From the sequence record PZ154897.1: a stretch of DNA of 64,000 nucleotides. One strand, given 5' to 3'. The position numbers and the translations under genes are program-made. Shown here piece by piece: positions 15,708-57,360 of this stretch; the stretch's first letter is position 1; each line of letters begins with the position of its first letter. This stretch comes from a phage. Under the pieces are notes generated by a model that saw nothing but the letters and a program-made list of their open reading frames with translations, did not search any database and was not told where the DNA came from.

Positions 15708-16736
<1,029 letters not shown>

Positions 16737-17696: not shown

Positions 17697-18647
17697 GTTA
17701 TTTTCCTCTTTAATCATCATCAGCAGTATTGCCGATAGTTGTATAGTACCACAGTATGCTTTGGGGTCCGTGTCATCAGCACTAGATGAACTGCCAGAGC
17801 TTGAGCTCATAAAATCATCTTCAGTTTTTGTTTTGAAGTCATCAACATTGAATGCATCCAAATCATCAGCAACTTTATCAGCTTTCTTAGCGGCAGTTGC
17901 TGCGGCACCACCCATAGCAGCAGTTCCCATAACTTGACTGAACTTAGTGCTCAGTTCTTCAAACGATTTGAATTTATCTTTAGAAGTCATTTCAGAAAGG
18001 TCAACCATTTGTTCGAACAGTTCTTTCTGGAAAGATTCATCATCAATGTTTGGAATCGCAGATTGATTCAGGAATTTAGATTCGTCGTAGTTACTAAAAC
18101 CAGAAACTTGTTTAACTTTCAGTACAAAGTTAGCACCTTCCCACGGACAAGTTACATCAACAGGAGTTTCACCCATTTCAACATCAACTGCAATCATTGC
18201 ATTGATTTTATCCCAGATTTTCTTACCGAAACGATATTTAAATACTTTACCTTCATTTTCTGGAGCAGCTGGGTCTTTTACAACAAGAATGTTAGCCCAG
18301 TAAGAAGTTTTACGTTTAACAAGACCGTACTCTTTATTGTCAGTGTTATACAAATCATTTTTACTGATGTACTGACATACTGGACAAGAATCGTAATCAC
18401 CGTAGGTAGATGAGCATGTTTCGATATACCATTTACCATTTTTCTTGAAACCGTGATTTACAAGAAGTGCGAATGGTGCTTGTTCATCATTTTTAGACGG
18501 AAGAAAACGAATTACTGCTTGACCGTTACCCGCATTATCGAGTTTCAGTTTCCACTCGCCTTTATCTTCAGAAGAAAAACCACCTTTATTTCCAGCCAGT
18601 TTAGCCATTTGTGCAGCGAGTTCAGCAGTAGATTTACGTTTAAACAT
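17469..18647 (-). CDS. 32: single-stranded DNA-binding protein gp32; frame lacks a stop at the T4 position and continues to 17469 (392 aa)
   Basis: residues 1-294 match T4 gp32 through ...SSSSADDTD; the last 8 codons and stop of T4 (LDDLLNDL*) are absent and replaced by a promoter-like repeat. Confidence 0.85.
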
Positions 18648-54506: not shown

Positions 54507-54707
54507 TCATTTTGAATGCTCTATAATTAATTTTAAGGCTTCTTCACTTACAAAAATTTCGTCAGGGCTTTCTTCTGCAACCCAATCAACCATACGAAGC
54601 TGATTAGATAAGAGCTCATATGTGAGCTCCTTGTCATAATCTTTAAATAGCTGGTCAATACGTTTCTTGTGGGCTTTCTTAAGTTGACGTTTATTTAAAC
54701 GAGCCAT
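54507..54707 (-). CDS. hypothetical basic protein (66 aa)
   Basis: ORF between soc and gene 56. Confidence 0.4.
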   Translation of the reverse strand: MARLNKRQLKKAHKKRIDQLFKDYDKELTYELLSNQLRMVDWVAEESPDEIFVSEEALKLIIEHSK

Positions 54708-55225
54708 TAATAACCTCGGTCTTGACGAGCGAAATTTTCAGCATTTTTCAGATAATAAAGTTTAAAGATTTCTTCAGCTGACATTCCAAGAGCAATGAAT
54801 TTATTCATGAAAAAGTGAAATTGATCAATCAGTTCAAATTTAATTTCAAGTTGATCTTCAGGAGATAAATCTTGAATTTTCTTGGATTGCATTTCAGAAT
54901 AACGTTTCTTCCAAGGTTTCCATACAGCAGAAGCTTCTTTTTCACCATTACTCATACCACCAAGAGAAGTATATAACTCGCGAGTTTCGTCTGCGATATA
55001 ATCGTCTTGGTTTCGCAGCCAAGCAAGAACTTCTCCTGCAGTTTCAAGTGAATCGGGATGACGATTTGTTTCTGGTTTATCATTAGCCAAACGAATCTGT
55101 AAATGCCGCTGCATGTCAAGCATAACCTGCAATGGGTCAATACTGTGCATAATATACTCAGCATATGCACGATTTGCTTTATCAACACCTTCGATCAAAT
55201 GAGCACATTCATTAAAGTGAGCCAT
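54707..55225 (-). CDS. 56: dCTP pyrophosphatase gp56 (171 aa from ATG 55225)
   Basis: MazG-like all-alpha NTP pyrophosphatase; size matches T4 gp56. Confidence 0.8.
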   Translation of the reverse strand: MAHFNECAHLIEGVDKANRAYAEYIMHSIDPLQVMLDMQRHLQIRLANDKPETNRHPDSLETAGEVLAWLRNQDDYIADETRELYTSLGGMSNGEKEASAVWKPWKKRYSEMQSKKIQDLSPEDQLEIKFELIDQFHFFMNKFIALGMSAEEIFKLYYLKNAENFARQDRGY

Positions 55226-55285
55226 TAGTTTTCCTTTCAATTCATTAATAAGTTAAATAATTATATCATTTGAGTATGTAAGCAA

Positions 55286-56077
<792 letters not shown>

Positions 56078-56134
56078 TCATTTATTGCAGCAAAAACGAA
56101 TTGTGATAAATATTATTTTTAAGGAGGACAGCGC

Positions 56135-56335
56135 ATGGTACAAAAATTAATGGCACTTGTTAATGCCATCAAAGGTAATAAAAAACGTATAGCTTTTACT
56201 ATTTCTGCTATGATAGGAATTTTACTTTGGAATTTTGTTTTATCGCCAGTTGCTATTGCTCATGGCGTTAGTATTCCAGTAATTACTCTTGATACATTCG
56301 TAGATTTAGCATTTGCTTTGGTTGGGTTAATTTAA
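56135..56335 (+). CDS. small membrane protein (66 aa) on opposite strand
   Basis: AAGGAGG SD 7 nt before ATG; two hydrophobic segments; intergenic between dam and 61. Confidence 0.45.
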   Translation: MVQKLMALVNAIKGNKKRIAFTISAMIGILLWNFVLSPVAIAHGVSIPVITLDTFVDLAFALVGLI

Positions 56336-57360
56336 ATCTTAGCATATTTAGATAGCCGCATTTTAGCCATCAGCCCCTGCGCAATATTATTTTTCATATA
56401 TTCCATAATTTGTTCAGGGGTTGCACCTTCCTTTCTAATCATATCATTGACATCTTTTGATTTCCAGGGAGATTTATCCCAAAACATAACCCTTTCTCCT
56501 GCATCAACTAATTTAGTCATTCGTTTAATAGTGTCAGGGTGACGAGGTTCATTATCTAAAACCCATACACGTCTATCTTTAAATGGAACAATTTCTAGGT
56601 CTAATTGACCACCAGTAATAGCTATACCATTTTCAATAAAAAGTGAATCTATAGGTCCTTCTAGAACATATACATCACCATCTTTAACCCGTTCGACACC
56701 ATAGATTTTTGTTGCCTCAGGATAAGCTTTGATGGTGATATATTTTTGAGGAGCATCTTTCTTTAATGCGCGTCCTTGAAAAGACTCAGCTTTTCCATTA
56801 GCATTATAAATTGGAATAACAAGACGAGGCTCAGGTATTTCCTTTTTATATGTTCCTGGCGCTATACTATTAACTAATTTAGGCCATTCGGTTGTAAACC
56901 AAAGATATTTCCATTTATCCTTTGGAATACAGCGAGCTTTTACATATTTTATAATTGGATGGCCTTCCGCCAGTTTATCTAATCTAACACATGACGGAAG
57001 AGATTTAATTATTTTCTTCTCAGGTTGTTTAGGAAGTTCTTTAGGTTTTTCTACTGGACGACTTTTACCTTTTTCTTTTCTTATTTCAAAGATATACTCA
57101 CGATATAAATCAGGTTCAAACTCCTTTAGATATATTCCGATTGGTGCATGATAGTTACAGTTATAACAATGAATATTTCCTTCATTATTATCACCATAAT
57201 ACCATCCACGGGCTTTATTTTGGTCGGTTTTTGAATCTCCACAAACAGGACATCTAAACCGCAATTTAAAAGTTGAACTATTATTTACTTGTGTGAATTT
57301 AGGTAAATGAGCTAATGCACGGTATGCAAACTCATTATCAATCCAAGGTATTGATGACAT
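56332..57360 (-). CDS. 61: DNA primase gp61 (342 aa)
   Basis: zinc motif CPVCGDS...CYNC and Toprim region; same length as T4 gp61. Confidence 0.9.
   Translation of the reverse strand: MSSIPWIDNEFAYRALAHLPKFTQVNNSSTFKLRFRCPVCGDSKTDQNKARGWYYGDNNEGNIHCYNCNYHAPIGIYLKEFEPDLYREYIFEIRKEKGKSRPVEKPKELPKQPEKKIIKSLPSCVRLDKLAEGHPIIKYVKARCIPKDKWKYLWFTTEWPKLVNSIAPGTYKKEIPEPRLVIPIYNANGKAESFQGRALKKDAPQKYITIKAYPEATKIYGVERVKDGDVYVLEGPIDSLFIENGIAITGGQLDLEIVPFKDRRVWVLDNEPRHPDTIKRMTKLVDAGERVMFWDKSPWKSKDVNDMIRKEGATPEQIMEYMKNNIAQGLMAKMRLSKYAKI

What the first reader, a model, noticed from the sequence alone, without database searches (positions are those of the whole stretch)
56135..56335. Plus-strand small membrane protein gene embedded in the minus-strand dam-61 region
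A 66-aa ORF with two hydrophobic segments is preceded by a near-perfect SD (AAGGAGG, 7-nt spacer) and lies almost entirely in intergenic DNA, ending 4 nt into the gene 61 stop region. Everything around it is on the opposite strand, so it would need its own promoter; a near-match to the late motif (GATAAATA) lies upstream.
Basis: seen in the sequence. Interest (0 to 1): 0.45.

Follow-up and report, generated by a model that had tools for sequence, protein, structure and literature searches.

The report
Unannotated T4 late small membrane gene
The 66-codon plus-strand ORF between dam and the primase gene is a real, conserved small membrane-protein gene of T4-like phages. It probably has its own late promoter, is listed as "hypothetical protein" in hundreds of relatives, is missing from the T4 reference annotation, and has no known function.

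Summary
Window 56135..56335 (+) is a 66-aa ORF with SD AAGGAGG, a 7-nt spacer, a 4-nt overlap with the stop of gene 61, and GATAAATA 22 nt upstream of the ATG.

It is a real gene:
- It belongs to PHROG 2024 (E 1.9e-30), the RB69ORF029w / RB32ORF030w / VR7ORF033w family.
- It lies at the same place and on the same strand, between 56/dam and 61, in at least 8 genera of Tevenvirinae.
- It is under purifying selection (dN/dS about 0.1-0.15), and all indels are in frame.
- T4 itself carries it (17738..17938 +), but NC_000866 and AF158101 do not annotate it.

Upstream, only three elements survive across genera: (N)ATAAATA, a GGAG Shine-Dalgarno and the ATG. The motif is a perfect TATAAATA in one genus and AATAAATA in three lineages. 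T4 early and middle transcripts all run on the other strand, so a variant gp55 late promoter is the best reading.

The protein has a basic N-terminus, one long hydrophobic helix with invariant W-N-x4-P, and a short acidic amphipathic C-terminal helix. The likely topology is N-in/C-out with a single span. The second "hydrophobic segment" is probably not an independent TM helix.

No functional homologue was found by sequence or fold. Expression was not tested. Verdict: already known as a catalogued ORF, function unknown, modest interest.

The parts
56105..56112 (+). GATAAATA, a T4 late-promoter-like motif (TATAAATA with G at -13). The predicted transcription start is about 56118-56121.
   Evidence: Read in the sequence. 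ATAAATA is conserved at the equivalent place in nine of the ten lineages compared; Gelderlandvirus has ATTAAATA. The first base varies: G, A, C or T. Published data show position -13 is the tolerant position: A(-13) at 9 of 50 T4 sites (PMC2988020), and -13 is poorly conserved in relatives (PMC1524935). Activity was not tested.
56121..56127 (+). Shine-Dalgarno AAGGAGG, 7 nt before the ATG.
   Evidence: one match in the window, 0.09 expected. GGAG is conserved in all genera.
56135..56335 (+). 66-codon ORF plus stop codon: a small membrane protein of the PHROG 2024 / RB69ORF029w family.
56135..56188 (+). Residues 1-18: N-terminal amphipathic helix ending in the basic cluster KGNKKR (net charge +5). 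Predicted to be cytoplasmic.
   Evidence: AlphaFold model, H2-11. Charge counts in 9 lineages. Topology is inferred from the positive-inside rule.
56189..56260 (+). Residues 19-42: the hydrophobic transmembrane helix, with invariant W32, N33 and P38 and near-invariant A40.
   Evidence: helix 15-42, pLDDT about 90. The RB69 orthologue was predicted to have a TM at 21-41.
56261..56332 (+). Residues 43-66: conserved loop (near-invariant G44 and P48, 90% or more of sequences) plus a 14-residue amphipathic helix carrying D53 and D57. Predicted to be periplasmic or interfacial, and not an independent TM helix.
56137..56172 (-). Terminator-like hairpin on the minus strand (11-bp stem, 4-nt loop, then TTTTTG) embedded in codons 5-13 of the ORF. 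It probably ends or stabilises gene 61 transcripts.
   Evidence: It is present in the Tequatrovirus sequences folded but absent in Mosigvirus and Gaprivervirus, so it cannot explain conservation of the ORF.
56332..57360 (-). Gene 61 (DNA primase), convergent with the ORF and overlapping it by 4 nt.
55286..56068 (-). The dam methyltransferase gene, which bounds the intergenic gap on the other side.

Best explanation
This is a genuine protein-coding gene of T-even phages, present in T4 but missing from its reference annotation.

Transcription (inferred): it is transcribed clockwise from its own variant gp55-type late promoter (GATAAATA). Translation starts from a strong Shine-Dalgarno sequence on a short leader.

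Product (inferred): a 66-aa inner-membrane protein. The basic N-terminus stays in the cytoplasm. One long, weakly hydrophobic helix carrying the invariant W-N-x4-P motif spans the membrane. A 24-residue tail (G-x3-P loop plus a short acidic amphipathic helix) sits at the periplasmic face or folds back along the helix.

Role (guess): it probably works late in infection by binding another membrane protein through that conserved intramembrane/interfacial motif. The most plausible arena is envelope or lysis-timing control.

Status of each step:
- Shown: the ORF, its signals, family membership, synteny, purifying selection, and the conserved promoter/SD footprint.
- Inferred: late transcription, membrane insertion and topology.
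- Guess: the partner and the process.
For: - The ORF and its signals are verified.
- The window protein matches PHROG 2024 at E 1.9e-30, and all tested genera fall in the same family at E 1e-24 to 1e-28.
- tblastn with the window protein finds 693 phage records, 686 of them covering at least 80% of the protein.
- The position and strand are the same, next to gene 61, in Tequatro-, Mosig-, Gapriver-, Gelderland-, Marfa-, Dhaka-, Mosuguk- and Jiaodavirus, whether or not dam is present.
- Selection: 9-14 synonymous against 4-6 non-synonymous changes within clades, binomial P 3e-5 to 3e-3. Variable sites by codon position are 7/2/12 and 6/1/13. dS is saturated between genera while 46-55% amino-acid identity remains. 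Indels are in frame.
- Upstream DNA is unalignable between genera except for ATAAATA, GGAG and the ATG. Marfavirus has a perfect TATAAATA; WG01, RB69-like phages and dam-less Tequatroviruses have AATAAATA.
[quoted passage not shown] Position -13 is poorly conserved in relatives (PMC1524935).
- In this window, perfect TATAAATA sites precede the ORFs I take from size and position to be genes 34, 36, t and soc, at similar distances.
- Structure: AlphaFold model with pLDDT 82.7, helix 15-42 plus helix 52-65.
- The N-part carries a net positive charge and the C-part a zero or negative charge in all 9 lineages.
- The RB69 orthologue was published as having one TM at 21-41 and no signal peptide.
Against: - No transcription, translation or protein data could be reached. 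The T4 dRNA-seq TSS table is not held as text.
- G at -13 is a rarer deviation than A.
- The 2006 HMM scan of RB69 listed no late promoter before ORF029w.
- The predicted leader is very short, with the SD 0-3 nt from the 5' end.
- The T6 record has ATT in place of ATG, and a few records carry truncated copies. The gene is therefore probably dispensable in the laboratory.
- The TM helix is only marginally hydrophobic on the Hessa scale (0 to +3.6 kcal/mol).
- Nothing links the protein to any particular process. There are no Pfam or NCBIfam hits, no remote homologues among 1.84 billion representative proteins, and no significant fold matches.
Confidence: 0.72

Rival explanations
1. Chance ORF. 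The DNA would be conserved for minus-strand reasons (a terminator after gene 61, or promoter/leader elements of dam or 56), and no protein would be made.
For: A terminator-like hairpin on the minus strand lies inside codons 5-13. The ORF is not annotated in T4. Spurious ORFs of similar length are common in this AT-rich window.
Against: The hairpin is Tequatrovirus-specific, whereas the ORF persists in at least 8 genera with saturated synonymous divergence. Substitutions show a third-position excess and dN/dS of 0.1-0.15. Indels are in frame. The SD and ATG are conserved. No minus-strand ORF overlaps it.
Confidence: 0.03
2. A holin, pinholin or antiholin-type lysis protein: two TM segments that oligomerise, or that regulate the T holin.
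For: Its size, the predicted late expression, a weakly hydrophobic SAR-like first helix and a second hydrophobic segment. One UniProt entry for the OE5505 homologue is named 'Holin'.
Against: It has no charged cytoplasmic C-terminal tail. It is not next to an endolysin or to t, and sits among replication genes instead. No holin family matches in Pfam, NCBIfam or PHROG. The second segment is not predicted to insert. The 'Holin' name is a single automatic label, whereas every NCBI name seen for this and the other homologues is 'hypothetical protein'. From established knowledge, T4 already has the T, RI and RIII lysis-timing system.
Confidence: 0.1
3. A cleaved secretory precursor. Residues 1-42 would act as a long signal peptide (P38 at -5, A40 at -3, A/T/S42 at -1), releasing a 24-residue acidic amphipathic peptide into the periplasm.
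For: P38 is invariant, A40 is near-invariant, residue 42 is small, and G44 is near-invariant (90% or more). Together these fit the -5/-3/-1 signal-peptidase pattern across the family.
Against: The n-region (18 aa) and h-region (about 19-23 aa) are much longer than in cleaved signal peptides. SignalP was negative for RB69ORF029w. The AlphaFold model shows a continuous helix up to residue 42.
Confidence: 0.08
4. The main product is a late antisense RNA. The promoter would drive transcription into gene 61 to silence primase mRNA late in infection, and the peptide would be secondary.
For: The arrangement is convergent, with a 4-nt overlap in many genera. No plus-strand intrinsic terminator was found in the next 4 kb. 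Both strands are known to be transcribed at different times at several T4 sites (PMC2988020). The T4 dRNA-seq study reports 22 antisense TSSs.
Against: Protein-level selection and a strong SD are not needed for an antisense RNA. In Gapriverviruses a second paralogous ORF lies between the first ORF and gene 61, which argues for coding use. This reading can coexist with the best explanation.
Confidence: 0.1
5. A superinfection-exclusion or immunity protein like Imm.
For: It is a small inner-membrane protein, and sp (spackle) lies about 2 kb away.
Against: Its strand and promoter point to late expression. From established knowledge, Imm and Sp are early genes. No similarity to any described family was found.
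Confidence: 0.07

Closest known systems
RB69ORF029w / RB32ORF030w / VR7ORF033w (PHROG 2024, function unknown)
   Same: Same family (E 1.9e-30, full length), same size, same position and strand next to gene 61. The exact window protein is deposited as a hypothetical protein, for example AWD91638.1.
   Different: Nothing essential differs. The window and T4 carry the A-type subfamily. Other genera carry a B-type paralogue, and Gapriverviruses carry both in tandem.
T4 late genes driven by variant gp55 promoters (TATAAATA class)
   Same: A 7-of-8 match whose only deviation is at -13. The polarity is clockwise, the leader is short and AT-rich, and the distance to the ATG is like that of the ORFs taken to be genes 36, t and soc in this window.
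   Different: G at -13 rather than the usual T or A. The site lies inside an early-gene block, and its activity has never been shown.
T4 RI antiholin and other SAR (signal-anchor-release) proteins
   Same: A small N-in/C-out protein whose single helix is only weakly hydrophobic, being rich in A/G/S/T or carrying an Asp in the B-type.
   Different: No sequence similarity. The periplasmic part is only about 24 residues, whereas RI has a folded domain of about 70 residues (from memory). Release from the membrane was not tested.
Class II holins and pinholins (for example phage 21 S68)
   Same: About 65-70 aa with two consecutive hydrophobic stretches.
   Different: No charged C-terminal tail, no lysis-cassette context, no holin-family match, and a second stretch that is not predicted to span the membrane.
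T4 Imm (small membrane immunity protein)
   Same: A small phage inner-membrane protein encoded among replication genes.
   Different: Imm is an early gene on the other strand with two clear TM helices (from established knowledge). No homology was detected.

Membership tests
PHROG 2024 / RB69ORF029w family | Full-length match to the family profile | tested here: met
   E 1.9e-30, residues 2-66 against profile positions 1-65 of 65. Homologues from 6 further genera score E 1e-24 to 1e-28.
PHROG 2024 / RB69ORF029w family | Conserved position: on the strand opposite to, and convergent with, primase gene 61, downstream of 56/dam | tested here: met
PHROG 2024 / RB69ORF029w family | Core motif W-N-x4-P-x-A-x3-G-x3-P | tested here: met
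   W32, N33 and P38 are invariant. A40, G44 and P48 are invariant or nearly so across 11-29 diverse sequences.
T4 late (gp55-dependent) transcription unit | TATAAATA at -13 to -6 | tested here: inconclusive
   The window has GATAAATA, a 7-of-8 match. Position -13 is the known tolerant position. Orthologous sites read TATAAATA, AATAAATA, CATAAATA or ATTAAATA. The motif was not picked up by the 2006 RB69 late-promoter HMM scan.
T4 late (gp55-dependent) transcription unit | Polarity compatible only with late transcription | tested here: met
   The ORF is on the same strand as the large ORFs I take to be genes 34, 36 and t in this window. [quoted passage not shown]
T4 late (gp55-dependent) transcription unit | An RNA 5' end about 6 nt downstream of the motif that appears late and depends on gp55, gp33 and gp45 | not testable with these tools
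   A T4 dRNA-seq dataset exists, but its TSS table is not held as text.
Holins (class II / pinholin) | Match to a described holin family | tested here: not met
   Pfam gave 0 hits at E<=10, NCBIfam gave 0 hits, and the PHROG category is 'unknown function'.
Holins (class II / pinholin) | Charged hydrophilic C-terminal cytoplasmic tail | tested here: not met
   The protein ends ...AFALVGLI, and no basic residue occurs after R18.
Holins (class II / pinholin) | Gene located in a lysis cassette next to an endolysin or spanin gene | tested here: not met
   The neighbours are dam, 56 and 61 in all genera examined.
Holins (class II / pinholin) | Lethal hole formation on expression | not testable with these tools
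   This needs an experiment.
Integral inner-membrane small protein | At least one hydrophobic helix long enough to span the bilayer, with positive-inside flanks | tested here: met
   The model has a helix at 15-42 with pLDDT about 90. Kyte-Doolittle scores are 1.5-2.0. N-terminal charge is +1 to +5 and C-terminal charge 0 to -3 in 9 lineages. A published prediction gives a TM at 21-41 for the RB69 orthologue. Actual insertion was not shown.

The most novel reading that the evidence does not exclude
T4 has carried an overlooked late gene for decades. Its product would be a 66-aa signal-anchored membrane protein with a SAR-like, marginally stable helix, and it would be an unrecognised component of the T-even lysis-timing / lysis-inhibition or envelope machinery. 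The late transcript from its promoter might additionally run antisense into the primase gene. The existence of two paralogous types, carried in tandem by Gapriverviruses, would then suggest a heteromeric membrane module.
Probability: 0.15. Interest if true: 0.6.

Novelty: already known. Interest (0 to 1): 0.3.

Why it matters
T4 is the reference genome for a very large phage group. NC_000866 and AF158101 still lack this gene, so expression atlases, proteomics searches and knock-down screens built on that annotation cannot detect it. It is one of the few plus-strand coding units inside the early replication-gene block, and it would add a variant late promoter there. Small phage membrane proteins often control lysis, exclusion or host interactions. 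A conserved one without a function is therefore a cheap and well-defined target for a knockout. The finding itself is not surprising: the ORF has been annotated in relatives since RB69.

Tried and rejected
- Pfam and NCBIfam scans gave no hits.
- An exhaustive profile search of 1.84 billion representative proteins with an A-type profile returned only 6 proteins. All are family members or fragments.
- A wider profile search gave about 120 clusters, apparently all from this family; every long contig is 100-193 kb, the size of T4-like phage genomes. The names were 'hypothetical protein' or obvious mislabels.
- Foldseek against BFVD and PDB gave only the family itself plus non-significant helical hairpins. 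The AFDB library was unavailable.
- Product names 'putative head morphogenesis protein' (T6), 'dCTP pyrophosphatase' (CGG4-1, SEA1), 'DNA packaging ATPase' (SAKp28) and 'Holin' (UniProt, OE5505) were rejected as artefacts. In the T6 record the neighbouring genes are plainly mislabelled, for example gp56 as ferredoxin. In CGG4-1 the real gp56 sits next door.
- A sigma-70 promoter reading was rejected. No plus-strand match was found, and the TGTG context is not conserved.
- The minus-strand hairpin was rejected as the cause of conservation, because it is genus-specific.
- There is no paralogue elsewhere in the window.
- Literature searches for the ORF names, for T4 ribosome profiling and for small proteins found nothing on this gene. 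Miller et al. 2003 is not held.

Full report
**1. What is in the sequence**

The window is a Tequatrovirus (T4-like) genome in T4 orientation. On the minus strand, gp56 lies at 54707..55240, dam at 55286..56068 and primase gene 61 at 56332..57360.

The flagged ORF runs 56135..56335 on the plus strand. It has 66 codons and a TAA stop. AAGGAGG sits at 56121-56127 with a 7-nt spacer, and GATAAATA sits at 56105-56112. The ORF stop (56333-56335) and the gene 61 stop (56332-56334, complement) share a 4-nt overlap.

AAGGAGG-N7-ATG occurs once in the 64 kb, against 0.09 expected. There are six VATAAATA sites on the plus strand, and only this one is followed by an SD and an ORF. The perfect TATAAATA sites in the window precede the ORFs I take, from size and position, to be genes 34, 36, t and (on the minus strand) soc, at 20-34 nt from the ATG.

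**2. Is it a gene?**

Yes, on comparative grounds.

- *Family and distribution.* The protein matches PHROG 2024 ('unknown function') end to end at E 1.9e-30. tblastn with the window protein finds it in 693 phage records, 686 of them covering at least 80% of the protein. Identity is 85-100% in Tequatrovirus, about 50-55% in Mosigvirus and 46% in Gaprivervirus.
- *Wider reach.* Searches with more distant members extend the family to Gelderland-, Marfa-, Dhaka-, Mosuguk- and Jiaodavirus, and to Enterobacter, Edwardsiella and Citrobacter phages. Every one tested falls in PHROG 2024 at E 1e-24 to 1e-28.
- *Synteny.* In every locus opened, the ORF is on the strand opposite its neighbours, convergent with gene 61 and downstream of 56 or dam. 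This holds whether or not dam, segF or another insert is present.
- *Selection within clades.* Changes are mostly synonymous: 11 synonymous against 4 non-synonymous, 9 against 4, and 14 against 6. Binomial P is 6e-5, 6e-4 and 3e-5 against neutral expectation, and dN/dS is about 0.1-0.15.
- *Codon positions.* Variable sites fall 7/2/12 (Tequatrovirus) and 6/1/13 (Mosigvirus) on codon positions 1/2/3.
- *Between genera.* Synonymous sites are saturated (pS 0.6-0.8) while the protein keeps 46-55% identity.
- *Indels.* They come in whole codons.
- *No competing minus-strand ORF.* None overlaps.

T4 itself has the ORF at 17738..17938 (+), with 5 conservative substitutions relative to the window. Neither NC_000866 nor AF158101 annotates it. 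The exact T4 protein is absent from NCBI's protein sets, whereas the exact window protein is deposited many times as 'hypothetical protein'.

**3. Promoter**

Upstream sequences from ten lineages are unalignable except for three elements: ATAAATA, a GGAG Shine-Dalgarno and the ATG.

The motif in each lineage:

| Lineage | Motif |
|---|---|
| Window, T4, Mosugukvirus | GATAAATA |
| dam-less Tequatroviruses, RB69-like Mosigviruses, Dhakavirus | AATAAATA |
| Gaprivervirus | CATAAATA |
| Marfavirus | TATAAATA (perfect) |
| Gelderlandvirus | ATTAAATA |

It lies 13-22 nt before the ATG in the ten lineages. In Jiaodavirus, a second site further upstream (GATAAATA, 33 nt before the ATG) would give a longer leader.

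The review of T4 late transcription gives the following for the 50 listed T4 late sites: 32 are perfect, 9 have A at -13, and the others carry single deviations or, in one case, a TA-to-AT swap. [quoted passage not shown] Nolan et al. found position -13 poorly conserved in relatives (PMC1524935).

A sigma-70 reading finds no support. I therefore read this as a variant gp55 late promoter.

Caveats: G at -13 is a rarer variant. The 2006 HMM scan of RB69 did not list a site here. The leader would be very short. I could not reach any TSS data, because the T4 dRNA-seq study reports 150 phage TSSs including 22 antisense ones but its table is not held as text.

**4. The protein**

The profile search of 1.84 billion representatives with the A-type alignment returned only six family members or fragments. 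A broader profile gave about 120 clusters. There are no Pfam or NCBIfam matches.

In the 29-sequence alignment W32, N33 and P38 are invariant and G44 and P48 are present in at least 90% of sequences; in the 11-sequence alignment A40 is near-invariant. AlphaFold with that 29-sequence alignment gives pLDDT 82.7. The model has helix 2-11, a 28-residue helix at 15-42, an extended loop at 43-51 and a 14-residue helix at 52-65.

On the Hessa scale the first hydrophobic stretch scores 0 to +3.6 kcal/mol and the C-terminal one +5 to +11 kcal/mol. The N-part is net positive and the C-part neutral or negative in all nine lineages. This points to a single N-in/C-out span with a short periplasmic or interfacial tail. 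It agrees with the published prediction for RB69ORF029w of one TM at 21-41 and no signal peptide. A helical hairpin is not excluded.

The helix is only marginally hydrophobic. It is rich in A/G/S/T in the A-type and carries an Asp in the B-type, which resembles SAR domains. The conserved P(-5), A(-3), small(-1) pattern before H43/G44 also resembles a signal-peptidase site. I keep that as a minor rival.

Fold searches gave nothing significant beyond the family itself.

**5. Function**

Nothing ties the protein to a process. The 'Holin', 'head morphogenesis', 'dCTP pyrophosphatase' and 'DNA packaging ATPase' labels on single homologues are annotation artefacts. The holin criteria that could be tested fail: no charged C-terminal tail, no lysis-cassette context, no family match.

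My best guess is a late-acting small modulator at the inner membrane, perhaps in lysis timing or envelope control. This is inference only.

Because no plus-strand terminator follows within 4 kb, the late transcript may also run antisense into gene 61.

The ATT start in the T6 record and a few truncated copies suggest the gene is dispensable in culture.

**6. Verdict**

The second segment, however, is probably not a second TM helix.

The object is already known as a catalogued hypothetical ORF (RB69ORF029w, RB32ORF030w, VR7ORF033w, PHROG 2024). What this work adds:
- It is missing from the T4 reference annotation.
- Its variant late promoter is phylogenetically footprinted.
- It comes in two paralogous types, which Gapriverviruses carry in tandem.

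Interest is modest.

Noticed in passing
window 56137-56172 (-): A terminator-like hairpin (11-bp stem, 4-nt loop, then TTTTTG) on the minus strand lies inside codons 5-13 of the plus-strand ORF, about 160 nt downstream of the gene 61 stop. It is present in the Tequatroviruses checked, including T4, but not in Mosigvirus or Gaprivervirus. It is probably a terminator or stabiliser for gene 61 transcripts that shares sequence with the ORF.
   Followed up: partly
L013 1495-1901 and L015 1495-1901 (VR26 and VR25); L005 2495-2970 (VR7): Gapriverviruses carry two paralogues of the small ORF in tandem on the plus strand: an A-type, then a B-type starting 8 nt after the A-type stop. The B-type is the only form in Dhaka-, Marfa-, Gelderland- and Mosugukvirus. 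In the VR7 record the second copy is unannotated and has a frameshift near its C-terminus. This second copy accounts for the apparent 207-nt gap before gene 61.
   Followed up: partly
window 56069-56134; L003 3127-3238; L002 1669-2229 (-): The DNA between the dam start and the small ORF varies in length. It is 66 nt in the window and about 110 nt in T4. Other Tequatroviruses carry a 186-aa minus-strand ORF (PHROG 8706, function unknown) abutting dam. That ORF has a weak, sub-threshold Pfam similarity to the GATC-specific DpnII restriction endonuclease (E 0.002). This could be a nuclease partner of Dam, but it is unconfirmed. In Jiaodavirus 5N a homing endonuclease occupies the equivalent spot.
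   Followed up: partly
L007 2501-2503 (T6 record AP018814, coordinates 16228-16230): The T6 record has ATT in place of the ATG start codon of the small ORF, and the annotators called a shorter ORF from Met6. This is either a weak non-canonical start, a loss of expression in this stock, or a sequencing error.
   Followed up: no
L007 (AP018814) and L019 (NC_031065): Product names in these records are unreliable. In T6, gp56 is labelled 'ferredoxin', soc 'terminase small subunit' and the small ORF 'putative head morphogenesis protein'. In CGG4-1 the small ORF is labelled 'dCTP pyrophosphatase'. Such labels propagate into UniRef.
   Followed up: yes
L006 2457-2653 (phage ECCR664, OL631257): The small ORF is split by a frameshift in this 134-kb, sparsely annotated record. 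This is probably an assembly-quality problem rather than gene loss.
   Followed up: no
window 8774 (+), 18801 (-), 2251 (-): Three perfect TATAAATA sites are not followed within 80 nt by an ATG-initiated ORF of 40 codons or more. They may be late promoters with long leaders, antisense late promoters, or chance matches.
   Followed up: no
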